Below are positions 16,521 through 51,787 of a DNA stretch of 64,000 bases, one piece after another. The stretch is from assembly GCF_003018255.1 (NCBI RefSeq), contig NZ_CP027440.1. One strand, given 5' to 3'. Position 1 is the stretch's first letter, and each line of letters begins with the position of its first letter. Made by a program: the position numbers and the translations under genes. The notes under the pieces are model-generated. The model was not told where the DNA came from. It saw nothing but the letters and a program-made list of their open reading frames with translations, and did not search any database. This stretch comes from Escherichia coli. Its GTDB lineage: Bacteria > Pseudomonadota > Gammaproteobacteria > Enterobacterales > Enterobacteriaceae.

Positions 16521-18782
16521 ATGACAATTCTTAATCACACCCTCGGTTTCCCTCGCGTTGGCCTGCGTCGCGAGCTGAAAAAAGCGCAAGAGAGTTATTG
16601 GGCGGGGAACTCCACGCGTGAAGAACTGCTGGCTGTTGGGCGTGAATTACGTGCCCGTCACTGGGATCAACAAAAGCAGGCGGGTATCGACCTGCTGCCG
16701 GTGGGCGATTTTGCCTGGTACGATCATGTACTGACCACCAGTCTGCTGCTGGGTAACGTTCCGCCACGTCATCAGAACAAAGATGGTTCGGTAGATATCG
16801 ACACCCTGTTCCGTATTGGTCGTGGACGTGCACCGACTGGCGAACCTGCGGCGGCAGCGGAAATGACCAAATGGTTTAACACCAACTATCACTACATGGT
16901 GCCGGAGTTCGTTAAAGGCCAACAGTTCAAACTGACCTGGACGCAGCTGCTGGAGGAAGTGGACGAGGCGCTGGCGCTGGGCCACAAGGTCAAGCCCGTG
17001 CTGCTGGGGCCGGTTACCTACCTGTGGCTGGGTAAAGTGAAAGGTGAACAGTTTGATCGCCTGAGCCTGCTGAACGACATTCTGCCGGTTTATCAGCAAG
17101 TGTTGGCAGAACTGGCAAAACGCGGCATTGAGTGGGTACAGATCGACGAACCAGCGCTGGTACTGGAACTACCGCAGGCGTGGCTGGACGCATACAAACC
17201 CGCTTACGACGCGCTCCAGGGCCAGGTGAAACTGCTGCTGACTACCTATTTTGAAGGCGTAACGCCAAATCTCGACACGATTACTGCGCTGCCTGTTCAG
17301 GGGCTGCATGTGGACCTTGTACATGGTAAAGATGACGTTGCTGAACTGCACAAGCGTCTGCCTTCTGACTGGCTACTGTCTGCGGGTCTGATCAATGGTC
17401 GTAACGTCTGGCGCGCCGATCTTACCGAGAAATATGCGCAAATTAAGGACATTGTCGGCAAACGCGATTTGTGGGTGGCATCTTCCTGCTCGTTGCTGCA
17501 CAGCCCCATCGACCTGAGCGTGGAAACGCGTCTTGATGCAGAAGTGAAAAGCTGGTTTGCCTTCGCCCTACAAAAATGCCATGAACTGGCACTGCTGCGC
17601 GATGCGCTGAACAGTGGTGATACGGCGGCTCTGGCAGAATGGAGCGCTCCGATTCAGGCGCGTCGTCACTCTACCCGTGTCCATAATCCGGCGGTAGAAA
17701 AGCGTCTTGCAGCCATTACCGCCCAGGACAGTCAGCGTGCGAATGTCTATGAAGTGCGTGCTGAAGCCCAGCGTGCGCGTTTTAAACTGCCCGCGTGGCC
17801 GACTACCACGATTGGTTCCTTCCCGCAAACCACGGAAATTCGTACACTGCGTCTGGATTTCAAAAAGGGTAATCTCGACGCCAACAACTACCGCACGGGC
17901 ATTGCGGAACATATCAAGCAGGCCATTGTCGAGCAGGAACGTTTGGGACTGGATGTGCTGGTACATGGCGAGGCCGAGCGTAATGACATGGTGGAATACT
18001 TTGGCGAGCATCTGGATGGCTTTGTCTTTACGCAAAACGGTTGGGTACAGAGCTACGGTTCCCGCTGCGTGAAGCCACCGATTGTCATTGGTGACGTTAG
18101 CCGCCCGGCACCAATTACCGTGGAGTGGGCGAAATATGCACAATCGCTGACCGACAAACCGGTGAAAGGGATGCTGACGGGGCCGGTAACCATACTCTGC
18201 TGGTCATTCCCGCGTGAAGATGTCAGCCGTGAAACCATCGCCAAACAAATTGCGCTGGCGCTGCGTGATGAAGTGGCGGACCTGGAAGCCGCTGGAATTG
18301 GCATCATCCAGATTGATGAACCGGCACTGCGCGAAGGTTTACCGCTGCGTCGCAGCGACTGGGATGCCTATCTCCAGTGGGGCGTGGAGGCTTTCCGTAT
18401 CAACGCCGCCGTGGCGAAAGATGACACACAAATCCACACTCACATGTGTTACTGCGAGTTCAACGACATCATGGATTCGATTGCGGCGCTGGACGCAGAC
18501 GTCATCACCATCGAAACCTCGCGTTCCGACATGGAGTTGCTGGAGTCGTTTGAAGAGTTTGATTATCCAAATGAAATTGGTCCAGGCGTCTATGACATTC
18601 ACTCGCCAAACGTACCGAGCGTGGAATGGATTGAAGCCCTGCTGAAGAAAGCGGCAAAACGCATTCCGGCAGAGCGTCTGTGGGTAAACCCGGACTGTGG
18701 CCTGAAAACGCGCGGCTGGCCAGAAACCCGCGCGGCACTGGCGAACATGGTGCAGGCGGCGCAGAATTTGCGTCGGGGATGA
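16521..18782 (+). CDS. metE: Cobalamin-independent methionine synthase
   Basis: 753 aa; duplicated UroD-like barrel, C-terminal zinc-binding His/Cys/Glu region (HMCYCEF...); divergent from metR. Confidence 0.97.
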
Positions 18783-18821
18783 TGAGTATTAACGAGTCAT
18801 TGTAAATTGCAGTACGATAAT

Positions 18822-18847
18822 GGCTTCCAGTACTGGAAGCCATTTTG
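18822..18847 (+). terminator. Rho-independent terminator downstream of metE (possibly bidirectional)
   Basis: Inverted repeat ggcttccag/ctggaagcc followed by attttgc. Confidence 0.6.
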
Positions 18848-18950
18848 CATGAGTGCCAGATTGAAGCAGATCTTCAGGAGTAGAAATAACCGAATCGTTT
18901 TTTTCGCAAAACACAGTTTTGAGTGATTCCGTTCAGTAATCAACGCTACG

Positions 18951-19211
18951 TTATTTATTCTCACGTTGCACGAGATTGTATCCCTTTTCACTAACGTGGT
19001 AGTGAGGCATAGACTTATGCCCGCTATCCTCAATAATAACCAAACCTTCGTTAGCTAATTTGTTAACAATATTAACAATATTACCGAATCCTGGTATTTG
19101 CCTTATGGATAGTGTGCGATCGAGATTCATCCAGTTCCAGTTTATATCTTTCTCAGTCATAACGTTCAGCACGTTAAGTTCATTTTTAGTGATCACGATA
19201 TTCTGTACCAA
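18951..19211 (-). CDS. Candidate immunity protein, paralog 2 (distal copy)
   Basis: 86 aa; clearly paralogous to the 19271..19528 ORF (shared NVL.VM.EKDI.W.WM.LDRTL.IR.IPGFGN..NIV.KL...GLV); AT-rich; downstream of the Hcp-fusion gene. Confidence 0.6.
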   Translation of the reverse strand: MVQNIVITKNELNVLNVMTEKDINWNWMNLDRTLSIRQIPGFGNIVNIVNKLANEGLVIIEDSGHKSMPHYHVSEKGYNLVQRENK

Positions 19212-19270
19212 AATTGATGAGTATCTTATTGAAAGATCACAATGTAAATCATGCTCCTGTAATGGCTGGA

Positions 19271-19528
19271 TCAGAAGAGGTTGTCTTGTTGTTCTTTGAT
19301 AAGATTCAATCCATATTGAGAAACTCTGTAGCGTGGTTTAGAGTTGCCCTCACCATTTACGATATCAACCAACCCATGATTAACCAGCTTTGTTACGATA
19401 TTCGCTACGTTGCCAAATCCTGGAATATTTCGTATAGCTAAAGTACGATCCAGCACCATCCAGCTCCAGTCAATATCTTTCTCAGCCATAACTTTCAGCA
19501 CGTTAAATTCAACTATCGTAATCGTCAT
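19271..19528 (-). CDS. Candidate immunity protein, paralog 1 (proximal copy)
   Basis: 85 aa; start codon overlaps stop of the Hcp-fusion gene by 4 bp (ATGA at 19525-19528), i.e. translationally coupled; paralog of the 18951..19211 ORF. Confidence 0.65.
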   Translation of the reverse strand: MTITIVEFNVLKVMAEKDIDWSWMVLDRTLAIRNIPGFGNVANIVTKLVNHGLVDIVNGEGNSKPRYRVSQYGLNLIKEQQDNLF

Positions 19529-20658
19529 TTTTTTGCATCCGGATGAAATAAGTCAGTATCTTTAATTTTAAAGTCTTCTAGAGTTGCAGTATGTACATTA
19601 TTCCATAATTCATATCCATCTAAACCTTTCGGTTCACCTGTTTCCCATCCTAAATTACAATAACGCTGATACTCGCGACATTCATGAGTATAGTAGTTCA
19701 GATCGTATTTTTCAGGAAGCAATTCTTTATTTGCTATTTTCTTTAGCCTTGAAATCATTACATCATTAGCTGGATCATGATCAAATCTGGAGATATGCTT
19801 TTCAACAATAGCGATACCTTCCCTGTTGATTGTTACGCCATCTATCGTCAGGTTTTCAATTGGACCACCGGCAAGGTCGGGATTAAATGGTCTTCCTGAT
19901 ACTGCTCCTCTGGCTCCGAAATGCTCAAGTGATTCCAAATCAGGGAATCTCATTCTTCCCAGAACAACTCCAGCAACTATTGAAGCACCAGCGATGAGTA
20001 ACCCTTTGTTATCCATAACTTGATCGTAACCAGCAGGTGCATCTCCTCCCAACTTGTTTGCTGTTTCCCTGAATCCTTCGATATTCCCATTGTATATGCC
20101 GCCAGCAGCAAGCAGTCTGCCAACCGCTTTACTATTGAGTGTTTTGAGGCCATTATCATCTTTAGTTTTTGGCCGTGGTATAAACAGACGGTTGTAGTTA
20201 TCGGGAAATGCCAAATAACTAAATTCAGTATTAGCAATCAGATGCCTGGAGAGTATATATTCATAACTGGCAGTGATGGTTTCTGTATCCAGATTGTTCT
20301 CAGTAAACAGGTGATTGATTGCTGATAAGAGCGCGCCGCGGAGTTGAATGTTGTAATATTTCTCCCATCGACCAAATCTATTGATCCGATAGAAGTCAAA
20401 CTCCATGAACAACTGCTCGTTATTGTTAATAGCGTTAATAAGTAACGGGGAGCTTTTGTCAATCAACTTACAGAAACTAAGGCCATGTAATTGTGACCCT
20501 TTGCCTGTATTCGTAATACTATTAGATAGCGAGAACGCGAAGATTTCATCTTCATGGCCAATCTGCCAGCGATTACCTATTGATGCGCTCGTTCCGCAAC
20601 GAGAGGAAATACATCCTTGTTGTTCTCCGGTTATGGTCAGGTAAATAATATCACTCAT
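19525..20658 (-). CDS. Hcp (T6SS tube protein) domain fused to C-terminal extension of unknown function: candidate Hcp-ET type effector
   Basis: 377 aa; first ~165 aa resemble enterobacterial Hcp from memory (YLTITGEQQGCISSRCGTSASIGNRWQIGHEDEIFAF...KLIDKSSPLLINAI...EFDFYRI); ~210 aa C-terminal extension with GxxxG-rich hydrophobic segment and His/Glu/Tyr-rich tail (YYTHECREYQRY); AT-rich. Confidence 0.75.
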   Translation of the reverse strand: MSDIIYLTITGEQQGCISSRCGTSASIGNRWQIGHEDEIFAFSLSNSITNTGKGSQLHGLSFCKLIDKSSPLLINAINNNEQLFMEFDFYRINRFGRWEKYYNIQLRGALLSAINHLFTENNLDTETITASYEYILSRHLIANTEFSYLAFPDNYNRLFIPRPKTKDDNGLKTLNSKAVGRLLAAGGIYNGNIEGFRETANKLGGDAPAGYDQVMDNKGLLIAGASIVAGVVLGRMRFPDLESLEHFGARGAVSGRPFNPDLAGGPIENLTIDGVTINREGIAIVEKHISRFDHDPANDVMISRLKKIANKELLPEKYDLNYYTHECREYQRYCNLGWETGEPKGLDGYELWNNVHTATLEDFKIKDTDLFHPDAKK

Positions 20659-21049
20659 CCTTGAAAAACCTTTTGTTAATTCTTTTGTGAAAGAAAAATA
20701 GTATTGTTATTTTTTACCTTTATTTACGCCCAAAAGGGATGAACTAAAATGTGAAAAACAAAATGTTTCACTTTAATATCTTTTTATCAGGAAGGTCTGA
20801 GATAATTTATAATTAATGTGAATGTGTTGATAATAATTAATGTTTGTTTGAGAATGGGAGTTGATGGTAAATCTCTAAGGTGTCTGCCAGTGAAGAGACT
20901 CATTTATGACTATGACTTGCCGACTTTCTTAAGGTCAAATAGCGGAGTCGTGCTCTCCAATCAATTCATACTGATTATTTTTTGGGGGACAGAGATGGCA
21001 GCAAAATGCACTCGTTCACTCACCATCTCAAATATAGACTAAGAGGAAA
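20659..21049 (-). promoter_or_regulatory. AT-rich upstream/promoter region of the Hcp-fusion operon
   Basis: About 390 bp strongly AT-rich non-coding DNA upstream of the Hcp-fusion start; no precise -35/-10 assigned. Confidence 0.4.
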
Positions 21050-21862
21050 CTAATTCCGCTTCCCACCATACTGCTTAAACCACTCCAGCATACGCTGCCA
21101 GCCATCTTTCGCAGATTCGGCATGATAGCTCGGGCGATAATCGGCGTTGAATGCATGCCCGGCATCCGGGTAGACGATAATCTCTGCTTTCGCATTAGCA
21201 GCCCGCAGCGCCTGGCGCATGGTTTCAACGCTCTCCTGCGGAATGCTGTTATCCTGACCACCATATAAGCCGAGAACCGGCGCGTTAAGATCGGTTGCGA
21301 TATCAACAGGTTGTTTCGGTGAATTCAGCGACTTGTCGCCCGTCAGTTTGCCGTACCACGCCACTGCGGCTTTTAGCTGTGGATTATGCGCGGCATACAG
21401 CCAGGTGATACGTCCACCCCAGCAGAATCCGGTGATCATTAAACGATGAACATCGCCGCCGTTGCGGGAAGCCCAACTGGCGACATGATCGAGATCGGCC
21501 AGCACCTGCGAGTCAGGCACTTTTGCTACCAGACCGCTAAGCAACGTGGGGATATCGGCAAAATCATTCGGATCGCCTTCGCGGAAGTAAAGTTCAGGTG
21601 CAATAGCCAGATACCCCTCCAGCGCCAGACGGCGACAAATGTCGCGGATATGTTCATGCACGCCAAAAATTTCCTGCACTACAATGACCACTGGCAGTGG
21701 GCCATCGCTTTGCTTTGGTCTGGCATGGTAAGCAGGCATGTTATCCCCTTGTGAAGGGATAGAGGTGAAGCCCGCCACAATCGCGTCGTCCGGAGTCTGA
21801 ACGATGGTCGAAGCGAGAGGCGATGCCGCAGGTGCAAATCCAGATTGTTGTGTTGTTGCCAT
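21050..21862 (-). CDS. ysgA: Dienelactone hydrolase family protein YsgA
   Basis: alpha/beta hydrolase with dienelactone hydrolase-like sequence (GFCWGG nucleophile region); start chosen at MATTQQSGF; ORF track start at 21928 is a longer alternative. Confidence 0.85.
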   Translation of the reverse strand: MATTQQSGFAPAASPLASTIVQTPDDAIVAGFTSIPSQGDNMPAYHARPKQSDGPLPVVIVVQEIFGVHEHIRDICRRLALEGYLAIAPELYFREGDPNDFADIPTLLSGLVAKVPDSQVLADLDHVASWASRNGGDVHRLMITGFCWGGRITWLYAAHNPQLKAAVAWYGKLTGDKSLNSPKQPVDIATDLNAPVLGLYGGQDNSIPQESVETMRQALRAANAKAEIIVYPDAGHAFNADYRPSYHAESAKDGWQRMLEWFKQYGGKRN

Positions 21863-21982
21863 GGTATTCTCCGTACCCTTATAAAAATGTTGCGCAATGT
21901 TAACTATAGTCAGCATGCAACAAATCACATTGCCTGAATCGGCTCATCTTTTATGCAGTCCTGCAGAATGAAGAGTGATTTA

Positions 21983-21998
21983 TGTGATTTGCATCACT
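21983..21998. promoter_or_regulatory. Candidate CRP binding site in the udp promoter region
   Basis: tgtgatttgcatcact matches TGTGA-N6-TCACA consensus closely; udp is known to be CRP/CytR regulated. Confidence 0.6.
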
Positions 21999-22123
21999 TT
22001 TGATGGGTAAATTTATGCAACGCATTTGCGTCATGGTGATGAGTATCACGAAAAAATGTTAAACCCTTCGGTAAAGTGTCTTTTTGCTTCTTCTGACTAA
22101 ACCGATTCACAGAGGAGTTGTAT

Positions 22124-22888
22124 ATGTCCAAGTCTGATGTTTTTCATCTCGGCCTCACTAAAAACGATTTACAAGGGGCTACGCTTGCCATCGTCCCTGG
22201 CGACCCGGATCGTGTGGAAAAGATCGCCGCGCTGATGGATAAGCCGGTTAAGCTGGCATCTCACCGCGAATTCACCACCTGGCGTGCAGAGCTGGATGGT
22301 AAACCTGTTATCGTCTGCTCTACCGGTATCGGCGGCCCGTCTACCTCTATTGCTGTTGAAGAGCTGGCACAGCTGGGCATTCGCACCTTCCTGCGTATCG
22401 GTACAACGGGCGCTATTCAGCCGCATATTAATGTGGGTGATGTCCTGGTTACCACGGCGTCTGTTCGTCTGGACGGCGCGAGCCTGCACTTCGCACCGCT
22501 GGAATTCCCGGCTGTCGCTGATTTCGAATGTACGACTGCGCTGGTTGAAGCGGCGAAGTCAATTGGTGCCACCACTCACGTTGGTGTGACGGCTTCTTCT
22601 GATACCTTCTACCCGGGTCAGGAACGTTACGATACTTACTCTGGTCGCGTAGTTCGTCACTTTAAAGGTTCTATGGAAGAGTGGCAGGCGATGGGCGTAA
22701 TGAACTATGAAATGGAATCTGCAACCCTGCTGACCATGTGTGCAAGTCAGGGCCTGCGTGCCGGTATGGTAGCGGGGGTTATCGTTAACCGCACCCAGCA
22801 AGAGATCCCGAATGCTGAGACGATGAAACAAACCGAGAGCCATGCGGTGAAAATCGTGGTGGAAGCGGCGCGTCGTCTGCTGAAATAA
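22124..22888 (+). CDS. udp: Uridine phosphorylase
   Basis: Start at [11 protein letters not shown] (253 aa); PNP/UDP phosphorylase family motifs; K-12 synteny. Confidence 0.95.
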
Positions 22889-22914
22889 AAAACGCTCCCC
22901 AACTTCGGGGAGCG
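22886..22914. terminator. Bidirectional rho-independent terminator between udp and the convergent tctA-like gene
   Basis: Hairpin cgctcccc-aacttc-ggggagcg; A-run on + strand 5' side gives a T-run on the minus strand. Confidence 0.6.
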
Positions 22915-22921
22915 ATATCAG

Positions 22922-24412
22922 TTACTGACGCCGTAAACGCATTATTTTGCGGATTATTGGCGTCAGTAGCGTAAAGGCTGCCAGAGTTAGCAATGCCAGA
23001 GTGATCGGTCGGGTATACAGAAAGTCCAGTGAACCCCCTGAAAGCGACAGCGCACGGCGAAAATTACTTTCTGCCATCGGGCCCATAATCAATGCCAGCA
23101 CTACGGGTGATGCCGGATATCCTCCTTTCTGCATGAAATAGCCCACCACGCCTGCAATCAGCATAATGCCAACATCAAACAGGCTATTGTTCAACGCATA
23201 AGTCCCGACCACACAAAGTGCGAGGATCATCGGTGTGAGAATATTGCCGGGGATCTTCACCACGTTACCGATGACTTTCAAAGAGAGCAGTCCAAGAACT
23301 AGCAGCATGAAGTAACAAAAGATCATGCCGACAAACAGTGTATAAACCATATCGCCGTGGTCGGTAAACATCAGCGGGCCTGGTTGCATTCCCTGTAACG
23401 TTAACGCGCCCAGCATGATGGCGGTTACCGCATCGCCAGGGATCCCCAGCGTCAGCATAGGTAACAATGCGCCACCGGTGCAGCCATTCGCGCCTGCCTC
23501 ACAGGAGGCCACAGCTTTAATTTCACCCTTACCAAAGTTTTCTGGTGTCTTACTGAAACGACGAGTTTCGTTATAGGCAACAAAAGCTGCAATATCCGCC
23601 CCCGCACCGGGGATCATGCCGATAAAAACCCCTAATCCTGATGAGCGCAAAATGGTTAATGCAATGCGGCGTAGTGTTTGCCAGGGCAGTAACAGACTGC
23701 CGATAGCCACCTTCGCCCCCTGACGAATTTGCTGGTTTTGCTCCATAGAGCGGAATGCTTCTGAAGCAGCAAATAAACCAATCATCACCGGGATAAATGG
23801 CACATTCATCAGCTCCACAAATCCACCTGTAAACCGTGGAAAACCGCCCATTGGATCAAGGCCTATCGTTGCGATCAGCAATCCGCCAACCCCGGCAATC
23901 AGCCCTTTAATCAGCGACTCACCGGAAATACTGGCAATAATACTCAGTCCGAAGGTTGCCAGGGCGAAGGACTCCGAGGCACTAAATTTCAGCGCCCAAC
24001 TGGCAAGTACCGGAGAGAGAAACATCAGCACGATAATGCTGAGCGTTCCGCCACTAAAGGAAGAGAACGTGGCGGCACTCAATGCCAGCCCTGCTTTTCC
24101 CTGTTTCGTCAGCTCATAACCATCAATAGCGGTGGCTGCGGCGGCAGGCGTTCCGGGAATTTTGAGCAAAATTGCGGTGATAGAACCACCGTAGACGCCA
24201 CCAAAAAAGACGCCGCAAATCATCAACAAGCCAGAAACAGGCTCCATGCCGTAGGTGAAAGGCAGCAAAATCGCCACACCCATGGTCGCTGTCAGACCAG
24301 GCAAAGCGCCAATCACAATACCCAGCATCACCCCAAAAGTGGCAAACAGCAGCGCCTGAGGATTATTGAGTAATGTCGAAAAACCCTGAGTTAAAAGTTC
24401 ACTTTCAAACAT
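22922..24412 (-). CDS. Tripartite tricarboxylate transporter large permease, TctA family
   Basis: 496 aa polytopic membrane protein with internal duplication typical of TctA; follows tctB/tctC-like genes. Confidence 0.8.
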   Translation of the reverse strand: MFESELLTQGFSTLLNNPQALLFATFGVMLGIVIGALPGLTATMGVAILLPFTYGMEPVSGLLMICGVFFGGVYGGSITAILLKIPGTPAAAATAIDGYELTKQGKAGLALSAATFSSFSGGTLSIIVLMFLSPVLASWALKFSASESFALATFGLSIIASISGESLIKGLIAGVGGLLIATIGLDPMGGFPRFTGGFVELMNVPFIPVMIGLFAASEAFRSMEQNQQIRQGAKVAIGSLLLPWQTLRRIALTILRSSGLGVFIGMIPGAGADIAAFVAYNETRRFSKTPENFGKGEIKAVASCEAGANGCTGGALLPMLTLGIPGDAVTAIMLGALTLQGMQPGPLMFTDHGDMVYTLFVGMIFCYFMLLVLGLLSLKVIGNVVKIPGNILTPMILALCVVGTYALNNSLFDVGIMLIAGVVGYFMQKGGYPASPVVLALIMGPMAESNFRRALSLSGGSLDFLYTRPITLALLTLAAFTLLTPIIRKIMRLRRQ

Positions 24413-24424
24413 TGCTGGCCCCTG

Positions 24425-24934
24425 TTATTCGAAAAATGTGCCGACAGGCAATGGCACCTGTAACGCTTCGACAAACAGCAACCAGAGGATTGCCGTTAAC
24501 AGCAGCGCAATACCCGGTGTGAGTACCCATCGCCTGTAGCCCATCAACGTCATAATGACGATGAGGAAAACAGGAGTAGTAATGAGATAACCGCAGTAGC
24601 TCATCGCCACAATATAAAACGCGGTTGCCGCAATTCCTGTTGCTGTTTTCCTGAATGCCGGTTTTTCCTGTGCGTTGGCGCAAGAGGCTGGTTTTGCCTG
24701 CAAAAGATCGCGTATCACCAGCAAGACAGCGAGCACAATCAGGGCACAGGCATAGAAGGTAGGGAAGGCACTTGCACCGGGATCCGTTTCAATGGCAGTT
24801 GCTGGAAAATCAGCGGCATTAATCATCACCGCGCCAGCAACCACACAAAGTAACAGCGCCACCACCATCGTTGATGAAAGGCGCTTGCGGTGCGGTACGG
24901 CGAGTTGAGCAACAGACTGTTTTGTGTTCATCAA
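24425..24934 (-). CDS. Tripartite tricarboxylate transporter small subunit, TctB family
   Basis: 169 aa with about four hydrophobic helices, located between TctC-like and TctA-like genes. Confidence 0.7.
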   Translation of the reverse strand: MMNTKQSVAQLAVPHRKRLSSTMVVALLLCVVAGAVMINAADFPATAIETDPGASAFPTFYACALIVLAVLLVIRDLLQAKPASCANAQEKPAFRKTATGIAATAFYIVAMSYCGYLITTPVFLIVIMTLMGYRRWVLTPGIALLLTAILWLLFVEALQVPLPVGTFFE

Positions 24935-24947
24935 CCGTACCTCAGGT

Positions 24948-25922
24948 TTATTTTTTCAGGCCCAGGCGAGTCAGCAACTCGTCAAAGTACTTTTCCTGTT
25001 CGCTGATTTGGGTCTGGAAGCTGGCAGCGTCAAGCCATGCATAGTTGAGATTCAACTTTTGCAGTGCATCCTGGAATGCAGGCTCTTCAGCCGTCTCTTT
25101 TGCTGCCTTTGCCAGAACATCCACCACATCCTGCGGCGTTTTTTGCGACACAATCAGGCCGCGCCAGGTGCCGATGGAGAGATCAACGCCTTTCTCTTTT
25201 AACGTCGGGACGTCAGGCATGGTTTTCATTCGCTCATCCGCCATCACTACCAGTGTCTTCAGCTTGCCGCCATTCACATGGTTGATAACTTCTCCTGGGC
25301 TTACGGAAACCGCTTCAATATGCCCGCCTAACAGGCCTGTAATGGCAGGGGCTGCGCCGTCATACGGGACATGAGAAAACTTTGTGCCCGTTTTGTCTTC
25401 CAGTGCAGCTGCCGCCAGATGCCAGATAGCTCCGGTGCCTGAGTTACCAATGCGTACTTTTCCGGGATTCGCTTTGGAGTAAGCCATAAATTCTTCATAG
25501 CTATTCCACGGCGCATCGGCACGGACTGTGATAGCAGCCGGATCCGCATTCAGACGGGCAATGGGTTTAAAGTCGCTGGTTTTAAAACGCACCATTCCGA
25601 GGCTGGGAAGGGTGGTCAGTTCAACCGTGCCTAAACCAATTTTGTAACCGTTAGGGCGGGCAGCGGCGATTTCACTCAGGCCGATAGCACCGCCTCCGCC
25701 AGGTTTATTGATAACCCCGATGCTGACGGGTAAATGGTTTTTGGCGGCATCAGCAAAGGCACGGGCAACCAGATCCGTACCGCCTCCGGCAGCGTAGGGA
25801 ACGACTAACTCGATCTGTTTGGTTGGGTAGGAGGCAGCCTGTACAGGCGCAATGCTGAGGGCAGCGCCTGCAAGAAGTACCATTGCAGCCATTTTTTTCG
25901 GTAAGGTAAGATGTTTTATCAT
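24948..25922 (-). CDS. Tripartite tricarboxylate transporter periplasmic substrate-binding protein, TctC/Bug family
   Basis: 324 aa with signal peptide; Bug-family signature near N-terminus (YPTKQIELVVPYAAGGGTDLVAR). Confidence 0.8.
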   Translation of the reverse strand: MIKHLTLPKKMAAMVLLAGAALSIAPVQAASYPTKQIELVVPYAAGGGTDLVARAFADAAKNHLPVSIGVINKPGGGGAIGLSEIAAARPNGYKIGLGTVELTTLPSLGMVRFKTSDFKPIARLNADPAAITVRADAPWNSYEEFMAYSKANPGKVRIGNSGTGAIWHLAAAALEDKTGTKFSHVPYDGAAPAITGLLGGHIEAVSVSPGEVINHVNGGKLKTLVVMADERMKTMPDVPTLKEKGVDLSIGTWRGLIVSQKTPQDVVDVLAKAAKETAEEPAFQDALQKLNLNYAWLDAASFQTQISEQEKYFDELLTRLGLKK

Positions 25923-25946
25923 TGCTTTTATATCCTTATTTATCAG

Positions 25947-26576
25947 TTAGTTGCTATTTAAATTGTTCCATGCGTTCATAAACAGTACTGCATTTTCATA
26001 GACTTGCTCTGGCGTCATGCCGGGGCGATATAGCGCAGAACCGAGGCCAAAGCCGTTTGCGCCGTGGCTCAGATAACGCGCCATGGTTTCCGGTGTGATA
26101 CCGCCAACCGGTAACATCGGAACGGATTGTGGAATAACCGCACGCCAGGCTTTGGTAACTTCTGGCGTAATTTGTTCAGCCGGGAACAGCTTGATGGCAT
26201 TAGCACCATGTTCAATGGCAGCAAAGGCTTCGGTGGGCGTGGCGACGCCAGGCGCACAATACATACCCAGCGCACGGGCGCGACGGATCACCGCAGTATC
26301 GCAATGCGGCATCACGATAATCTGGCCCCCAGCCTCTTTAACCGCAACCACCTGCTCTACCGAAAGCACAGTTCCGGCTCCGACCAGGCAGTCCTTAGGC
26401 AGGGCGTCGCGCAGTAAACTGATACTTTGCAACGCCTCCGGCGAGTTCATAGGAATCTCAATCAGGCGGAATCCGGCGGCGTACAGTTTTTCACCGATGG
26501 CGACAATCTCATCCGGTTTCACGCCGCGTAAAATGGCGACTAACCCGGTTTTTTGCAAAAGTGTATTAAATGGCAT
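25947..26576 (-). CDS. 2-dehydro-3-deoxy-6-phosphogalactonate / KDPG aldolase family protein (DgoA-like)
   Basis: Aligns by eye with E. coli DgoA (LVAILRGVKPDE...IEIPMNSP...GAGTVL...GGITPE); start chosen at MPFNTLLQ (209 aa); ORF track start at 26651 is an upstream extension. Confidence 0.8.
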   Translation of the reverse strand: MPFNTLLQKTGLVAILRGVKPDEIVAIGEKLYAAGFRLIEIPMNSPEALQSISLLRDALPKDCLVGAGTVLSVEQVVAVKEAGGQIIVMPHCDTAVIRRARALGMYCAPGVATPTEAFAAIEHGANAIKLFPAEQITPEVTKAWRAVIPQSVPMLPVGGITPETMARYLSHGANGFGLGSALYRPGMTPEQVYENAVLFMNAWNNLNSN

Positions 26577-27570
26577 GGGTACATTCCCTGGCGTTGGTGG
26601 ACAGTAACCCGGCAGCGTGGGCGATTCGCCATAATCCATGTTCAGTGGCATTAGGAATGGCGTGTATCTGTCTGTCGGGAAAAACGTGGCTGAATGCTTG
26701 TGAATAGCGGCTGTTCAGATTTGCGCTACCGATTAAGGCGATCGGTGTTGTGGCGGGTAAATCACGTAGCAAACTGGATGCCAGACCACATAATTCATGG
26801 CCTATCAGTAATCCGGAAAGGTAATCCCCCTGCGAGGACGACGTAAGATTACTGGTCAGCAGGCGCGAACGGGTCGAAAACAGCGTCGATAATAATCCGG
26901 TCTGATGATGCTCTTGTGCTGCTGTCAGCCCGTGGGTGAAGGCATCCCAGTGCGGTTCATCTCCAGGATGCATGGTGGCACCGAGAATCGAATGGCGGGA
27001 TAAAACATCAAATAACTCGCCCGTCATAAAGGTTCGGAAATCGGTAATGGTGTTGTTTTCAACTACTGCCCATTTCGCATGTGTGCCGGGTAAGCCTATC
27101 AGCACTGGCATACCCTGATGGATCGCGTTTTGCAGGGCCGGTTCCATCGAGATAGCACCGAAGATTTGTGTCTCTTCGCCACGCATCACTTCGGGCATTT
27201 CACCTTCTTTAATCACGCCAGGAATGATGTGCAGCATTGTCTGCTGCTGGTGGATAACAGGCGTCAACTGCTTCGCCAGACCCTCGAGAGTGACCGGGCA
27301 AGGTAAATAAGCTGCTGATTGCCACCCTTGCGCACTGCCGAGCATGCCGCAAGCCAGTACCGGGCATGGGGTTTGTGCCAGCCAGTCGCCGCAGACACGT
27401 AAAAACGTATCGTGGAAAGCGTCCTCACGTGTTGCTGCCTGGGAGGGTAATTTCATGATCCCCCAGGGGAATTCACGTTTTTCTTGTGGATTTGGTGATT
27501 CGCCAAAACGCCATGCCCGAAGCGATGACGTTCCCCAGTCCAGGGCAATAAATGAGGGTGCTCCCGGCAT
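26566..27570 (-). CDS. 2-dehydro-3-deoxygalactonokinase family protein (DgoK-like)
   Basis: 334 aa; N-terminal IALDWGTSSLRAW and internal VMRGEETQIFG and PGTHAKW motifs resemble DgoK as recalled; 3' end overlaps aldolase start by 11 nt. Confidence 0.8.
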   Translation of the reverse strand: MPGAPSFIALDWGTSSLRAWRFGESPNPQEKREFPWGIMKLPSQAATREDAFHDTFLRVCGDWLAQTPCPVLACGMLGSAQGWQSAAYLPCPVTLEGLAKQLTPVIHQQQTMLHIIPGVIKEGEMPEVMRGEETQIFGAISMEPALQNAIHQGMPVLIGLPGTHAKWAVVENNTITDFRTFMTGELFDVLSRHSILGATMHPGDEPHWDAFTHGLTAAQEHHQTGLLSTLFSTRSRLLTSNLTSSSQGDYLSGLLIGHELCGLASSLLRDLPATTPIALIGSANLNSRYSQAFSHVFPDRQIHAIPNATEHGLWRIAHAAGLLSTNARECTHAI

Positions 27571-27593
27571 TAGTCGTTTCCTTTAATCATGGT

Positions 27594-28361
27594 TTATTTA
27601 TCTTTGCGGACGTGCTTACCCCAGCCCAGTTCAGCGGATATCTCTTCTGCACAGGATTTGACGTAAGGTGCCAGTTCTTCCAGACGCGCCAGCGACATAT
27701 ACGTGGTGGTACTGGCGACAGAAATAGCCGCCACAATTTCATCCCGGGCGTTGTAAACCGGCGCTGCAACGCAACGGATAGTCGGCTCGTTCTCTTCCAG
27801 ATCAAAAGCAAAACCACTGGCGGCATAACGACGCATGTTCTGAATAAATGCGCCCAGTTTTGTTTCATCACCACAGGTCTTAAACAGCGTGCGCCACTCT
27901 TCTTCTGTTCGGTTGAGGATCAATGCCTTGCCGATGCCGGTGATTGCCAGTGGCATGCGATGGCCTGGGCGTGAGCGCATTTCCAGCCCGCGCTGACTGT
28001 TGATCTTCTCCAGATACAGCACTTCGTCGCCTTCAACGATCCCCAGATGCACGGTGTCCAGGGTGTAACGGGCAAGGCGTTGCAAAACGGGCTGGGCAAT
28101 TTCGTACAGTGAGGTGCTTTCCAGTGCTCTGGCACCGAATTCGATCAGTTTGGCACCCAGTTGGTAGCCCTGCGTTGGGACATGGCGCAGGTAGCGTTGT
28201 TCCACCAGAACGGTGACTAAACGATGGGTTGTGCTCCGGGTCGTGCCGGTGAACTCGCCGATACTTTTTAGGTCATGGCAGCCGTTATAAACAGCATTAA
28301 GAACCGCCAGTCCACGTAATAACGTTTGTGCGCCTGCGGTGGTTGAAGAGGTTTCTGCCAT
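27594..28361 (-). CDS. IclR-family transcriptional regulator
   Basis: Start chosen at MAETSSTTAG (ATG 28361, RBS-like aggag upstream) giving about 255 aa; N-terminal wHTH plus C-terminal IclR effector-binding domain; 23 bp upstream of the kinase gene. Confidence 0.8.
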   Translation of the reverse strand: MAETSSTTAGAQTLLRGLAVLNAVYNGCHDLKSIGEFTGTTRSTTHRLVTVLVEQRYLRHVPTQGYQLGAKLIEFGARALESTSLYEIAQPVLQRLARYTLDTVHLGIVEGDEVLYLEKINSQRGLEMRSRPGHRMPLAITGIGKALILNRTEEEWRTLFKTCGDETKLGAFIQNMRRYAASGFAFDLEENEPTIRCVAAPVYNARDEIVAAISVASTTTYMSLARLEELAPYVKSCAEEISAELGWGKHVRKDK

Positions 28362-28421
28362 ACGTTTCTCCTGATGATATTGCTGAAGTGTTCCACATAA
28401 TGACGTGGGGAAAAGGTGATA

Positions 28422-28459
28422 TATCCCACAATATAAACTCCATCTCATATTGTGGGATA
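28422..28459. promoter_or_regulatory. Perfect 13-bp inverted repeat, candidate operator
   Basis: tatcccacaatat (28422-28434) and atattgtgggata (28447-28459) separated by 12 bp, located upstream of the IclR-family regulator gene and of rmuC. Confidence 0.5.
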
Positions 28460-28577
28460 AAATAATGAAAATTAACGATCGTTTTGCGTAGCGCCTCGCA
28501 GGAAATGCCTTTCCAACTGGACGTTTGTACAGCACAATTCTATTTTGTGCGGGTAAGTTGTTGCGTCAGGAGGCGTT

Positions 28578-30005
28578 GTGGATTTCTCAATCATGGTTTA
28601 CGCAGTTATTGCATTGGTGGGTGTGGCAATTGGCTGGCTGTTTGCCAGTTATCAACATGCGCAGCAAAAAGCCGAGCAATTAGCTGAACGTGAAGAGATG
28701 GTCGCGGAGTTAAGCGCGGCAAAACAACAAATTACTCAAAGCGAGCACTGGCGCGCTGAGTGCGAGTTACTCAATAACGAAGTGCGCAGCCTGCAAAGTA
28801 TTAACACCTCTCTGGAGGCCGATCTGCGTGAAGTAACCACGCGGATGGAAGCCGCACAGCAACATGCTGACGATAAAATTCGCCAGATGATCAACAGCGA
28901 GCAGCGCCTCAGTGAGCAGTTTGAAAACCTCGCCAACCGTATTTTTGAGCACAGCAATCGCCGGGTTGATGAGCAAAACCGTCAGAGTCTGAACAGCCTG
29001 TTGTCGCCGCTACGTGAACAACTGGACGGTTTCCGCCGTCAGGTTCAGGACAGCTTCGGTAAAGAAGCACAGGAACGTCATACCCTGACCCACGAAATTC
29101 GCAATCTCCAGCAGCTCAACGCGCAAATGGCTCAGGAGGCGATCAACCTGACGCGCGCGCTGAAAGGCGACAATAAAACCCAGGGCAACTGGGGCGAGGT
29201 GGTATTGACGCGGGTGCTGGAGGCTTCCGGTCTGCGTGAAGGGTATGAATATGAAACTCAGGTCAGCATCGAAAATGACGCCCGCTCGCGGATGCAGCCG
29301 GATGTCATCGTGCGGTTGCCGCAGGGAAAAGATGTGGTGATCGACGCCAAAATGACGCTGGTCGCCTATGAACGCTATTTCAACGCCGAAGATGACTACA
29401 CCCGCGAAAGCGCGCTACAGGAACATATCGCGTCGGTGCGTAACCATATCCGTTTGCTGGGACGCAAAGATTATCAACAGCTGCCGGGGCTGCGAACCCT
29501 GGATTACGTGCTGATGTTTATTCCCGTTGAACCCGCTTTTTTACTGGCGCTTGACCGCCAGCCGGAGCTGATCACCGAAGCGTTGAAAAACAATATCATG
29601 CTGGTTAGCCCGACTACGCTGCTGGTGGCGCTGCGCACTATCGCCAACCTGTGGCGTTATGAGCATCAAAGCCGCAACGCCCAGCAAATCGCCGATCGTG
29701 CCAGCAAGCTGTACGACAAGATGCGTTTGTTCGTCGATGACATGTCAGCGATTGGTCAAAGTCTCGACAAAGCGCAGGATAACTACCGCCAGGCAATGAA
29801 AAAACTCTCTTCAGGTCGCGGAAATGTGCTGGCGCAGGCAGAAGCGTTTCGCGGTTTAGGGGTAGAAATTAAACGCGAGATTAATCCTGATTTGGCTGAA
29901 CAGGCGGTGAGCCAGGATGAAGAGTATCGACTGCGGTCGGTTCCGGAGCAGCCGAATGATGAAGCTTATCAACGCGATGATGAATATAATCAGCAGTCGC
30001 GCTAG
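28578..30005 (+). CDS. rmuC: DNA recombination protein RmuC
   Basis: 475 aa, N-terminal TM helix then long coiled-coil and RmuC nuclease-like C-terminal domain; GTG start; K-12 synteny before ubiE. Confidence 0.92.
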   Translation: MDFSIMVYAVIALVGVAIGWLFASYQHAQQKAEQLAEREEMVAELSAAKQQITQSEHWRAECELLNNEVRSLQSINTSLEADLREVTTRMEAAQQHADDKIRQMINSEQRLSEQFENLANRIFEHSNRRVDEQNRQSLNSLLSPLREQLDGFRRQVQDSFGKEAQERHTLTHEIRNLQQLNAQMAQEAINLTRALKGDNKTQGNWGEVVLTRVLEASGLREGYEYETQVSIENDARSRMQPDVIVRLPQGKDVVIDAKMTLVAYERYFNAEDDYTRESALQEHIASVRNHIRLLGRKDYQQLPGLRTLDYVLMFIPVEPAFLLALDRQPELITEALKNNIMLVSPTTLLVALRTIANLWRYEHQSRNAQQIADRASKLYDKMRLFVDDMSAIGQSLDKAQDNYRQAMKKLSSGRGNVLAQAEAFRGLGVEIKREINPDLAEQAVSQDEEYRLRSVPEQPNDEAYQRDDEYNQQSR

Positions 30006-46209: not shown

Positions 46210-46224
46210 GCATAAAGAATAAAA

Positions 46225-46295
46225 AATGTGCGGTCAGAAAATTATTTTAAATTTCCTCTTGTCAGGCCGGAATAACTCCCTATAATGCGCCACCA
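46225..46295 (+). promoter_or_regulatory. rrn P1 promoter with AT-rich UP element
   Basis: -35 ttgtca (46259-46264), 16-bp spacer, -10 tataat (46281-46286), AT-rich UP element upstream. Confidence 0.8.
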
Positions 46296-46376
46296 CTGAC
46301 ACGGAACAACGGCAAACACGCCGCCGGGTCAGCGGGGTTCTCCTGAGAATCTCAACAGAGAAAAGCAAAAAAATGC

Positions 46377-46410
46377 TTGACTCTGTAGCGGGAAGGCGTA
46401 TTATGCACAC
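46377..46410 (+). promoter_or_regulatory. rrn P2 promoter
   Basis: -35 ttgact (46377-46382), 16-bp spacer, -10 tattat (46399-46404). Confidence 0.75.
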
Positions 46411-46585
46411 CCCGCGCCGCTGAGAAAAAGTGAAGCGGCACTGCTCTTTAACAATTTATCAGACAATCTGTGTGGGCACTCGAAGATACGGATTCTTAAC
46501 GTCGCAAGACGAAAAATGAATACCAAGTCTCAAGAGTGAACACGTAATTCATTACGAAGTTTAATTCTTTGAGCATCAAACTTTT

Positions 46586-48127
<1,542 letters not shown>

Positions 48128-48195
48128 CCTTAAAGAAGCGTACTTTGCAGTGCTCACACAGATTGTCTGATGAAAATGAGCAGTAAAACCTCTAC

Positions 48196-48272
<77 letters not shown>

Positions 48273-48314
48273 AATTTGCACGGCAAATTTGAAGAGGTTT
48301 TAACTACATGTTAT

Positions 48315-48390
48315 GGGGCTATAGCTCAGCTGGGAGAGCGCCTGCTTTGCACGCAGGAGGTCTGCGGTTCGATCCCGCATAGCTCCACCA
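48315..48390 (+). tRNA. alaT: tRNA-Ala (anticodon TGC) in 16S-23S spacer
   Basis: ggggctatagctcagctgggagagcgcctgctttgcacgcaggaggtctgcggttcgatcccgcatagctccacca; G3:U70 Ala identity pair and TGC anticodon. Confidence 0.95.
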
Positions 48391-48564
48391 TCTCTGTAGT
48401 GATTAAATAAAAAATACTTCAGAGTGTACCTGCAAAGGTTCACTGCGAAGTTTTGCTCTTTAAAAATCTGGATCAAGCTGAAAATTGAAACACTGAACAA
48501 CGAAAGTTGTTCGTGAGTCTCTCAAATTTTCGCAACTCTGAAGTGAAACATCTTCGGGTTGTGA

Positions 48565-51468
<2,904 letters not shown>

Positions 51469-51567
51469 TTACAACGCCGAAGATGTTTTGGCGGATGAGA
51501 GAAGATTTTCAGCCTGATACAGATTAAATCGACATGTCATAACGAGACGTGTTGATAAAACAGAATT

Positions 51568-51687
51568 TGCCTGGCGGCCTTAGCGCGGTGGTCCCACCTG
51601 ACCCCATGCCGAACTCAGAAGTGAAACGCCGTAGCGCCGATGGTAGTGTGGGGTCTCCCCATGCGAGAGTAGGGAACTGCCAGGCAT
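51568..51687 (+). rRNA. rrfA: 5S ribosomal RNA
   Basis: tgcctggcggcc...aactgccaggcat, 120 nt. Confidence 0.97.
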
Positions 51688-51744
51688 CAAATTAAGCAGA
51701 AGGCTATCCGTCAGGATGGCCTTTTTGCGCTGGAGCAGAATAAA

Positions 51745-51782
51745 TACCGGATGCGACGCTGGCGCGTCTTATCCAGCCTACT
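51745..51782. repeat. REP element downstream of the rrn operon
   Basis: ccggatgcgacgctggcgcgtcttatccagcctac REP-type palindrome. Confidence 0.7.
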
Positions 51783-51787
51783 TTTGC

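What the first reader, a model, noticed from the sequence alone, without database searches (positions are those of the whole stretch)
26566..26576. 11-nt overlap between kinase stop and aldolase start suggests translational coupling
With the aldolase start placed at MPFNTLLQ by alignment to DgoA, the kinase stop codon lies 11 nt inside the aldolase coding region, an arrangement that usually couples translation. The ORF track's longer aldolase start at 26651 would instead create an 86-nt overlap, which is less plausible.
Basis: seen in the sequence. Interest (0 to 1): 0.25.

Follow-up and report, generated by a model that had tools for sequence, protein, structure and literature searches.

The report
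Ordinary 11-base kinase–aldolase gene overlap
Two neighbouring sugar-acid genes in an optional E. coli operon really do overlap by 11 bases, exactly as public annotation already records; this is a routine layout that may link their translation modestly, which has not been tested.

Summary
On the minus strand the DgoK-like kinase (27570..26566) ends with TAA at 26568..26566. The DgoA-like aldolase starts at ATG 26576, so the two genes overlap out of frame by 11 nt (ATGCCATTTAA). RefSeq/PGAP annotates exactly these coordinates.

The short start is well supported:
- It has the only Shine-Dalgarno-like site (AGGGAA, -5.1 kcal/mol, against +0.4 for the ATGs at 26639 and 26651).
- The 209-aa product spans the whole KDPGal-aldolase family model.
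- Orthologues at about 62-65% nucleotide identity start at the same column, and a stop codon closes the upstream frame in them.

The -11 junction, with an identical core, is kept in two of three deep lineages. The third has stop and start abutting (0 nt).

Translational coupling is plausible but not shown. -11 lies just outside the -8..+6 window regarded as efficient for termination-reinitiation, and published measurements put re-initiation at about -11 at roughly one third of the -4 value. I found no inhibitory RNA structure, and the aldolase has its own ribosome-binding site.

This is an ordinary, already annotated feature. The surrounding six-gene cluster (IclR, kinase, aldolase, TctCBA) is accessory (1456 of 5426 complete genomes). 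My literature searches found no paper describing it, and it is more interesting than the overlap itself.

The parts
26566..27570 (-). DgoK-like 2-dehydro-3-deoxygalactonokinase CDS (334 aa), stop TAA at 26568..26566
   Evidence: Pfam PF05035 DGOK at 298.5 bits, covering the full profile 1-281 on residues 11-316. It is 35% identical to K-12 DgoK. PGAP gives the same coordinates. The last 18 residues, which include the overlap, lie outside the Pfam domain.
25947..26576 (-). [quoted passage not shown]
   Evidence: NCBIfam NF006600 at 321.9 bits (cut-off 207), with profile positions 5-208 of 210 on residues 4-207. It is 46% identical to K-12 DgoA, and the alignment begins at DgoA residue 9. Orthologue N-termini align at this Met. 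PGAP gives the same coordinates.
26566..26576 (-). 11-nt out-of-frame overlap, ATGCCATTTAA (aldolase M-P-F-N over kinase H-A-I-stop)
   Evidence: Seen directly in the sequence. The core ATGC[C/A]ATTTAA is kept in Buttiauxella and two related metagenomic loci whose kinase-aldolase span is about 62-65% identical at the nucleotide level.
26584..26589 (-). Shine-Dalgarno-like AGGGAA, 7 nt upstream of ATG 26576, inside the kinase tail
   Evidence: The duplex with the 16S 3' tail is -5.1 kcal/mol, similar to the other genes of the cluster (-5.6 to -7.4) and against +0.4 for the two upstream ATGs. GGGAA/GGGGAA/GGGAAA is retained in all orthologues although the kinase residues it encodes differ (R-E, G-K, G-E). 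About 15% of kinase-internal 20-mers score as well, so the motif alone is weak evidence.
26637..26651 (-). Two in-frame upstream ATGs (26651, 26639) that create the longer 234-aa ORF; judged not to be used
   Evidence: Neither has a Shine-Dalgarno match (+0.4 kcal/mol). ATG 26639 is AGG in other E. coli alleles. In orthologues the aldolase frame is closed by TAG 16 codons upstream of the start, or by TGA directly before it. None of the 120 best homologues listed covers the extra 25 residues.
27594..28361 (-). IclR-family regulator (255 aa by PGAP), 23 nt upstream of the kinase, same strand
   Evidence: Pfam HTH_IclR plus IclR_C. The nearest NCBIfam models are BhcR and KdgR, both below cut-off. 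Coordinates from PGAP.
22922..25922 (-). TctC (25922..24948), TctB (24931..24425) and TctA (24412..22922): a tripartite tricarboxylate transporter downstream in the same operon
   Evidence: Pfam PF03401, PF07331 and PF01970. The gaps are 24, 16 and 12 nt. The scan found no strong terminator-like site inside the cluster.
22893..22914 (-). Terminator-like hairpin (9-bp stem, 7 GC, T-run) just after tctA
   Evidence: Consensus scan. It lies between the convergent genes tctA and udp.

Best explanation
The aldolase is translated from ATG 26576, using a moderate Shine-Dalgarno element (AGGGAA) embedded in the poorly conserved C-terminal tail of the kinase. The kinase frame simply runs on through the aldolase ribosome-binding site and start until it meets the first out-of-frame stop (TAA, formed by aldolase codons 3-4), which gives an 11-nt overlap.

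Both genes lie on one transcript, in the order iclR-kinase-aldolase-tctCBA. Ribosomes that terminate at UAA sit with the AUG only 5 nt behind their P site and with the SD in reach of the anti-SD. Some of them can therefore re-initiate on the aldolase, and passing ribosomes keep the site unfolded. Because the site is accessible and has its own SD, most aldolase initiation is probably de novo, with a modest coupled component.

Shown: the coordinates, the start-site choice, conservation of the junction, the presence of the SD, and the absence of predicted structure. Inferred: the single transcript, and the existence and size of any coupling.
For: - Junction and annotation.
- Start site: SD -5.1 against +0.4 kcal/mol. 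The family model is 210 positions long and is covered by the 209-aa form. Orthologues start at the same column. The upstream frame is closed by stops in orthologues.
- Conservation: -11 in E. coli and in the Buttiauxella group (L003, L006/7, L017); 0 nt in L004/5. The SD-like GGGAA is kept while the kinase residues change.
- Family-wide, the DgoK-to-aldolase junction is tight: median -4, quartiles -7 and +3, n=231 (PMC10666635 Table S4). K-12 dgoK/dgoA overlap by 17 nt.
- The scan found no promoter-like site and only weak terminator-like matches (5-bp stems) near the junction.
- Re-initiation at d=-11 is measurable, about 0.007, roughly as at 0..+25 nt (PMC4538824).
Against: - There is no experimental N-terminus, ribosome-profiling or reporter data for this locus.
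- -11 is outside the -8..+6 window treated as diagnostic of termination-reinitiation (PMC10666635), and the re-initiation coefficient there is about a third of that at -4 (PMC4538824).
- No RBS-sequestering structure is predicted: z-score 0.03; mean unpaired probability 0.45-0.60 across orthologues, with no conserved hairpin. The classical unfolding route to strong coupling therefore has no support.
- More distant dgoK-dgoA pairs have spacers of +15 to +51 nt, so tight juxtaposition is not required for the pathway.
- Kinase and aldolase are not known to form a complex, which is the class of gene pairs most enriched for coupling.
Confidence: 0.8

Rival explanations
1. Strong, obligatory translational coupling. 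The aldolase is translated essentially only by ribosomes that have just finished the kinase, and the -11 junction plus internal SD is a selected device that fixes the kinase:aldolase ratio.
For: The 11-nt core and the SD-like motif are conserved at about 62-65% overall nucleotide identity, while the kinase tail residues vary. The third lineage keeps a 0-nt junction. The family-wide median spacing is -4. Native overlapping E. coli pairs tested by Huber et al. were tightly coupled (PMC10666635, PMC6728339). A terminating ribosome would need to move back only 5 nt (geometry read from the sequence).
Against: The pairs tested by Huber et al. had -4 or -1 nt overlaps, not -11. Coupling falls with increasing overlap (PMC12548453, PMC4538824). 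The RBS is accessible and has an SD comparable to those of independently initiated neighbours. Relatives work with +15..+51 nt spacers.
Confidence: 0.15
2. The overlap is a neutral by-product with no coupling. The kinase stop drifted downstream into the aldolase (or an earlier stop was lost), and the aldolase is initiated wholly independently from its own SD.
For: The kinase tail beyond the Pfam domain is unconserved and varies in length: K-12 DgoK stops right after the homologous AHA motif, whereas this kinase is 15 residues longer. One lineage has a different stop position. The aldolase has its own SD and an accessible site. Phase-1 overlaps (-8, -11, -14...) persist partly because they are hard to shorten by mutation (PMC10666635).
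Against: Any ribosome terminating 5 nt from an SD-flanked AUG is expected to re-initiate at a non-zero rate (PMC4538824). The tight junction is retained in all three deep lineages of this cluster.
Confidence: 0.3
3. The aldolase starts at ATG 26651 (or 26639), giving a 234-aa (230-aa) protein and an 86-nt (74-nt) overlap.
For: The frame is open in E. coli, and ATG 26651 is present in all five E. coli alleles inspected.
Against: There is no SD. ATG 26639 is not conserved within E. coli. The extension is absent from all homologues listed, and the frame is closed by stop codons in orthologues. The extension lies outside the Pfam and NCBIfam models. These ATGs arise from kinase codons N-A / H-G (AAT GCC, CAT GGA).
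Confidence: 0.04
4. A kinase-aldolase fusion protein is made by +1 frameshifting at AUU-UAA (or, in the L004 lineage, by read-through of the in-frame TGA).
For: The aldolase frame is +1 relative to the kinase at a stop codon with an upstream SD-like element. In L004/5 the two genes are in the same frame, separated by a single TGA. Aldolase/sugar-kinase fusion proteins exist as a family (NF041633, listed).
Against: There is no slippery motif of the RF2 type (CUU UGA C), and the SD is 12 nt from the P-site codon rather than about 3. UAA-U is a strong terminator context (own knowledge). The frame relation differs between lineages, so no fusion product is conserved. The known fusions are in the opposite domain order.
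Confidence: 0.01

Closest known systems
E. coli K-12 dgoK-dgoA junction in the dgoRKADT (D-galactonate) operon
   Same: It has the same two enzyme families in the same order and overlaps in the same reading phase (17 nt against 11 nt). In both, the aldolase ATG is embedded in a kinase His-Ala codon pair (CAT GCx) and the SD lies inside the kinase 3' end.
   Different: The proteins are only 35% (kinase) and 46% (aldolase) identical. K-12 has a much stronger SD (AAGGAG, -8.5 kcal/mol). The kinase here has a 15-residue longer tail, so the two overlaps are not positionally homologous. The K-12 operon has GntR-type DgoR, the dehydratase DgoD and the MFS transporter DgoT; this cluster has an IclR regulator, no dehydratase, and a TctCBA transporter.
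Termination-reinitiation coupled gene pairs with -4/-1/-8 nt spacing (Huber et al. 2019, 2023; review by Brown & Wade 2025)
   Same: The genes are co-directional and adjacent in one operon, the downstream start lies just upstream of the upstream stop, and the SD is inside the upstream gene.
   Different: The spacing is -11, just outside the -8..+6 window used to predict coupling. The pair does not encode subunits of a known complex. Coupling has not been measured here.
Long 'phase-1' overlaps (-8, -11, -14, ...) described by Huber et al. 2023
   Same: -11 belongs to this series, which is several-fold commoner than the other phase among long overlaps.
   Different: No difference: this locus is a typical member.

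Membership tests
KDPGal aldolase (DgoA; NCBIfam NF006600 / Pfam PF01081) | Whole-protein HMM score above the curated cut-off, with full-length coverage | tested here: met
   NF006600 scores 321.9 bits against a cut-off of 207, with profile 5-208/210 on residues 4-207 of the 209-aa form. PF01081 scores 106.9 bits against 27.8. The best solved relative is E. coli DgoA, 2V81 (E 3e-50).
KDPGal aldolase (DgoA; NCBIfam NF006600 / Pfam PF01081) | Catalytic Schiff-base Lys and general-base Glu, plus the Val that distinguishes KDPGal from KDPG aldolases (K126, E37, V154 in E. coli DgoA; residue roles from my own knowledge of the 2V81/2V82 work) | tested here: met
   The ungapped alignment has an offset of 28. 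E65, K154 and V182 of the 234-aa numbering (E40, K129, V157 of the 209-aa protein) are invariant columns in the 20-sequence alignment, which includes K-12 DgoA.
KDPGal aldolase (DgoA; NCBIfam NF006600 / Pfam PF01081) | Enzymatic cleavage of KDPGal to pyruvate and glyceraldehyde-3-phosphate | not testable with these tools
   No biochemical data were found for this paralogue.
2-dehydro-3-deoxygalactonokinase (DgoK, PF05035) | Full-length match to the DGOK model | tested here: met
   298.5 bits against a cut-off of 25, with profile 1-281/281. There was no NCBIfam hit at E<=1e-5, so naming rests on Pfam and PGAP.
Translationally coupled gene pair (termination-reinitiation type) | Co-directional neighbours on one transcript, with no promoter or terminator between them | tested here: inconclusive
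   The genes overlap, so there is no intergenic space. The consensus scan finds no promoter-like site and only weak terminator-like matches (5-bp stems) inside the genes. The transcript itself has not been observed.
Translationally coupled gene pair (termination-reinitiation type) | Stop-start spacing within the efficient window (-8..+6 nt; best at -4/-1) | tested here: not met
   The spacing is -11. The window is as defined in PMC10666635. The re-initiation coefficient begins to decline below -10 (PMC4538824).
Translationally coupled gene pair (termination-reinitiation type) | Downstream translation depends on translation of the upstream gene | not testable with these tools
   This needs reporter fusions with premature stops in the kinase, or ribosome profiling.
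Translationally coupled gene pair (RNA-unfolding type) | Stable structure that sequesters the downstream SD/start and is opened by upstream ribosomes | tested here: not met
   The 150-nt fold has z = 0.03 against shuffles. Unpaired probability over -15..+5 is 0.45-0.60, about the same as the whole segment, and no hairpin is shared among orthologues.

The most novel reading that the evidence does not exclude
The -11 junction with its nucleotide-level conserved SD is a selected coupling device inside an uncharacterised, ancestrally syntenic enterobacterial operon (IclR-DgoK'-DgoA'-TctCBA, lost from K-12). That operon would scavenge a free 2-keto-3-deoxy sugar acid such as KDGal through a tripartite tricarboxylate transporter. 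Coupling would keep aldolase production in step with the kinase so that the phosphorylated intermediate does not accumulate.
Probability: 0.2. Interest if true: 0.3.

Novelty: already known. Interest (0 to 1): 0.08.

Why it matters
The practical value is annotation hygiene. The longest-ORF call (26651) is wrong and the 209-aa product is right, and this matters for anyone who clones or models the enzyme. The overlap itself adds one more example to a well-catalogued class and opens no new question. If coupling were measured here, it would be a useful natural data point for -11 spacing, which lies at the edge of the range tested experimentally. The more worthwhile lead is the operon. It is a DgoK/DgoA pair with no dehydratase, joined to a TTT transporter. 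It is present in about 27% of complete E. coli genomes, including BL21 and ST131, and its substrate is unknown.

Tried and rejected
- RNA structure as a coupling device: the 150-nt fold has z = 0.03, and per-orthologue accessibility shows no conserved occlusion of the RBS. Rejected.
- Known RNA elements around the operon: Rfam at gathering thresholds over 18700..29000 found nothing.
- Internal promoter or terminator between the kinase and aldolase: the scan found no promoter-like site and only weak terminator-like matches.
- Within-species polymorphism to discriminate the starts: five alleles were compared. ATG 26639 is lost in four of them, but ATG 26651 is kept in all, so this was only partly informative. 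Cross-genus comparison was needed.
- Alternative downstream start, TTG at codon 7 (26558): there is no SD, the codon is CTG or TTA in orthologues, and it would remove the conserved N-terminal Phe/Leu positions. Rejected.
- Literature on this particular cluster: four full-text searches found nothing describing it. The BL21 metabolic-model paper does not mention it.
- I did not run the expensive genome contigs or metagenome scans. Targeted contig look-ups and the published COG-pair table gave enough junctions.
- I could not count -11 overlaps in the E. coli K-12 table of Huber et al., because the text search does not accept terms that begin with a minus sign.

Full report
**What is there**

The window is E. 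coli chromosome. Between udp (22118..22888, +) and rmuC (28578..30005, +) lies a six-gene minus-strand cluster (Pfam; PGAP coordinates):

| Gene | Coordinates (minus strand) |
|---|---|
| IclR-family regulator | 28361..27594 |
| DgoK-family kinase | 27570..26566 |
| DgoA-family aldolase | 26576..25947 |
| TctC | 25922..24948 |
| TctB | 24931..24425 |
| TctA | 24412..22922 |

A strong terminator-like hairpin follows at 22914..22893. The kinase-aldolase segment occurs in 1456 of 5426 complete E. coli genomes, including B/BL21 derivatives and ST131. K-12 has only 43 nt where the window has 22887..28481.

**Checking the observation**

The minus-strand sequence reads ...CCAGGGAATGTACCCATGCCATTTAATACA....
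- In the kinase frame this is R-E-C-T-H-A-I-stop, with TAA at 26568..26566.
- In the aldolase frame ATG 26576 opens M-P-F-N-T-L-L-Q.
- The shared stretch is 26566..26576, 11 nt, and the aldolase frame is +1 relative to the kinase.
- The longest ORF begins at ATG 26651 and would overlap by 86 nt. A third in-frame ATG lies at 26639. There are no GTG or TTG codons between them.

RefSeq/PGAP annotates exactly the 11-nt arrangement in an identical genome and in three other alleles.

**Which start is real**

Five independent lines favour ATG 26576.
1. **Shine-Dalgarno pairing.** The 20 nt upstream of 26576 pair with the 16S 3' tail at -5.1 kcal/mol (AGGGAA, 7-nt spacing). This is comparable with the kinase, tctC, tctB, tctA and iclR sites (-5.6 to -7.4). 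ATG 26639 and ATG 26651 give +0.4. About 15% of kinase-internal 20-mers do as well, so this evidence is supportive but not decisive.
2. **Family models.** The NCBIfam KDPGal-aldolase model NF006600 is 210 positions long and aligns at positions 5-208 to residues 4-207 of the 209-aa form. In the 234-aa form, Pfam PF01081 begins only at residue 31.
3. **Homologue lengths.** The 120 best homologues listed are mostly 202-222 aa, and none covers the first 25 residues of the long ORF. The closest orthologues begin at the same alignment column: MQFNTLLKETG, MDFKTTLQQSG, MQFNRLLKETG.
4. **Orthologue DNA.** In three Buttiauxella-group loci (L003, L006/7, L017) the aldolase frame is closed by TAG 16 codons upstream of the start. 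In L004/5 it is closed by the kinase TGA immediately before the ATG. The upstream ATGs in E. coli are by-products of kinase codons (AAT GCC; CAT GGA).
5. **Variation within E. coli.** ATG 26639 is AGG in four other alleles.

I put the 26576 start at about 0.95.

**Conservation of the junction**

The kinase-aldolase span falls into three deep lineages at 62-65% nucleotide identity: E. coli, the Buttiauxella group (83-85% among its members), and L004/5. All keep the rmuC/ubiE...udp neighbourhood and the TctCBA genes wherever the contig reaches that far.
- Two lineages keep the -11 overlap with the core ATGC[C/A]ATTTAA. The single difference is synonymous for the kinase (Ala) and changes Pro to Gln in the aldolase.
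- The third lineage has stop and start abutting (TGA ATG, 0 nt, same frame).
- An SD-like GGGAA/GGGGAA/GGGAAA lies 6-7 nt upstream of the ATG in all of them, although the kinase residues it encodes differ (R-E, G-K, G-E).
- The overlap lies in the 18-residue kinase tail beyond the Pfam domain.

Junction spacing in wider relatives and in this cluster:

| Locus | Kinase stop to aldolase start |
|---|---|
| K-12 dgoK-dgoA | -17 |
| E. coli cluster, L003, L006/7, L017 | -11 |
| L004/5 | 0 |
| Pseudomonas cichorii (L010) | +1 |
| L019 | +15 |
| L018 | +21 |
| Collimonas arenae (L009) | +27 |
| L008 | +51 |

A published survey of 231 DgoK-to-Eda-family pairs gives a median of -4 with quartiles -7 and +3 (PMC10666635 Table S4). 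Tight junctions are therefore typical of this gene pair, and -11 and -17 lie on the long-overlap tail.

**Does it couple translation?**

No tool here can show this directly, so I weighed it against the literature and the local anatomy.
- **Spacing and efficiency.** Coupling is most efficient between -4 and +3, and increasing overlap reduces it faster than increasing spacing does (review PMC12548453).
- **Predictive window.** Huber et al. treat -8..+6(+10) as predictive of termination-reinitiation. They note that -8 is already less efficient, and that the -8/-11/-14 phase persists partly because such overlaps are hard to shorten by mutation (PMC10666635).
- **Measured re-initiation.** Tian & Salis use the same distance convention. 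They measured a re-initiation coefficient of about 0.0072 for 0..+25 nt, declining by 0.0004 per nt below -10, against 0.022 at -4 (PMC4538824). At -11 re-initiation is thus expected to be present but about a third of the ATGA optimum, and small in absolute terms unless an inhibitory structure makes the downstream site depend on upstream ribosomes.
- **No such structure here.** The 150-nt fold is no more stable than shuffles (z = 0.03). The SD-to-start region is about as accessible as its surroundings in E. coli and in six relatives, and no hairpin is shared.
- **Geometry favours some re-initiation.** With UAA in the A site, the P-site codon AUU starts 5 nt downstream of the AUG, and the SD lies 12 nt upstream of that P-site codon. 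This is an inference from the sequence.

My reading is that initiation is mostly de novo from the aldolase's own SD, with a modest coupled component. I put strong obligatory coupling at about 0.15 and purely neutral overlap with no coupling at about 0.3.

**Comparison with known systems**

The closest analogue is the K-12 dgoK-dgoA junction. It has the same enzymes, order and overlap phase, and its ATG is likewise embedded in a His-Ala codon pair. However, its SD is stronger (AAGGAG, -8.5 kcal/mol) and the stop is at a non-homologous position, because this kinase carries a 15-residue longer tail.

The aldolase passes the family tests: the HMM cut-off, and the catalytic Lys, Glu and discriminating Val columns. 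The kinase passes Pfam.

As a 'coupled pair', the defining functional test cannot be done here. The spacing criterion is narrowly missed and the structural criterion is not met.

**Verdict**

The finding is real, correctly placed, correctly reasoned as to the start codon, and already present in RefSeq. The coupling inference is reasonable but overstated and remains untested. Interest is low.

**Side observations**

The cluster lacks a dehydratase and an MFS transporter, and couples DgoK/DgoA paralogues to a TTT transporter and a KdgR/BhcR-like IclR regulator. This suggests uptake of a ready-made 2-keto-3-deoxy sugar acid. No paper describing it was found. A TTT system for uronate-derived oligosaccharides was recently described in Vibrio (PMC13390454), which shows that TTT systems can serve sugar-acid catabolism.

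Between metE and ysgA the window carries a 377-aa Hcp-domain protein with a long C-terminal extension, followed by two tandem paralogous ~85-aa ORFs.

Noticed in passing
window 22887..28481: The whole IclR-kinase-aldolase-TctCBA cluster is accessory: 1456 of 5426 complete E. coli genomes carry it (one also has a plasmid copy), including B/BL21 derivatives and ST131. K-12 has 43 nt containing a udp terminator hairpin in its place, and the left boundary falls at the udp stop, so udp here ends ...CTG AAA TAA against ...CTG TAA in K-12. The same rmuC/udp synteny is seen in Buttiauxella, which suggests loss in K-12 lineages rather than recent gain.
   Followed up: partly
window 22922..28361: The cluster has DgoK- and DgoA-like enzymes but no dehydratase (DgoD) and no DgoT. 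Instead it has a tripartite tricarboxylate transporter and an IclR regulator whose nearest models are BhcR and KdgR. The predicted role is uptake and catabolism of a free 2-keto-3-deoxy sugar acid (KDGal?). No publication on it was found in four searches.
   Followed up: partly
window 25947..26576: Outside Enterobacterales, the aldolase's nearest relatives are DgoA proteins of Collimonas, Herbaspirillum and Pseudomonas (60-63% identity), found in canonical dgoK-dgoA-dgoD operons. It is only 46% identical to E. coli's own DgoA, so this is an old paralogue or a horizontal acquisition.
   Followed up: partly
window 19525..20658 (-), with 19271..19528 (-) and 18951..19211 (-): A 377-aa ORF between metE and ysgA has an N-terminal Hcp (T6SS) domain and a ~240-aa C-terminal extension with no Pfam hit, which looks like an Hcp-fused toxin effector. 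It is followed by two tandem paralogous ~85-aa ORFs (candidate immunity genes), the first overlapping the Hcp ORF's stop by 4 nt. Strain 104 carries a different ~14-kb insert (fdrA, arcC, tkt, ptsG-like, hxlB) at the same metE-ysgA position, so this is an insertion hotspot.
   Followed up: partly
window 28361 vs 28535; 24931 vs 24934: Longest-ORF calls also overshoot the PGAP starts of the IclR regulator (GTG 28535 against ATG 28361, 58 extra codons) and of TctB (TTG 24934 against ATG 24931). This is the same artefact as the aldolase 26651 start.
   Followed up: partly
L004:5990-6010 and L005:2063-2083: In one orthologous lineage the kinase and aldolase are in the same reading frame, separated only by a single TGA directly followed by ATG. 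Stop-codon read-through would produce a kinase-aldolase fusion. There is no evidence that this happens.
   Followed up: no
window 46210..51787: This stretch has no ORF of 150 aa or more and is flanked by hemG-like and mobB-like ORFs. In the annotated strain 104, an rRNA operon (16S, tRNA-Ile, tRNA-Ala, 23S, 5S) lies between these genes. I did not check this in the window itself.
   Followed up: no
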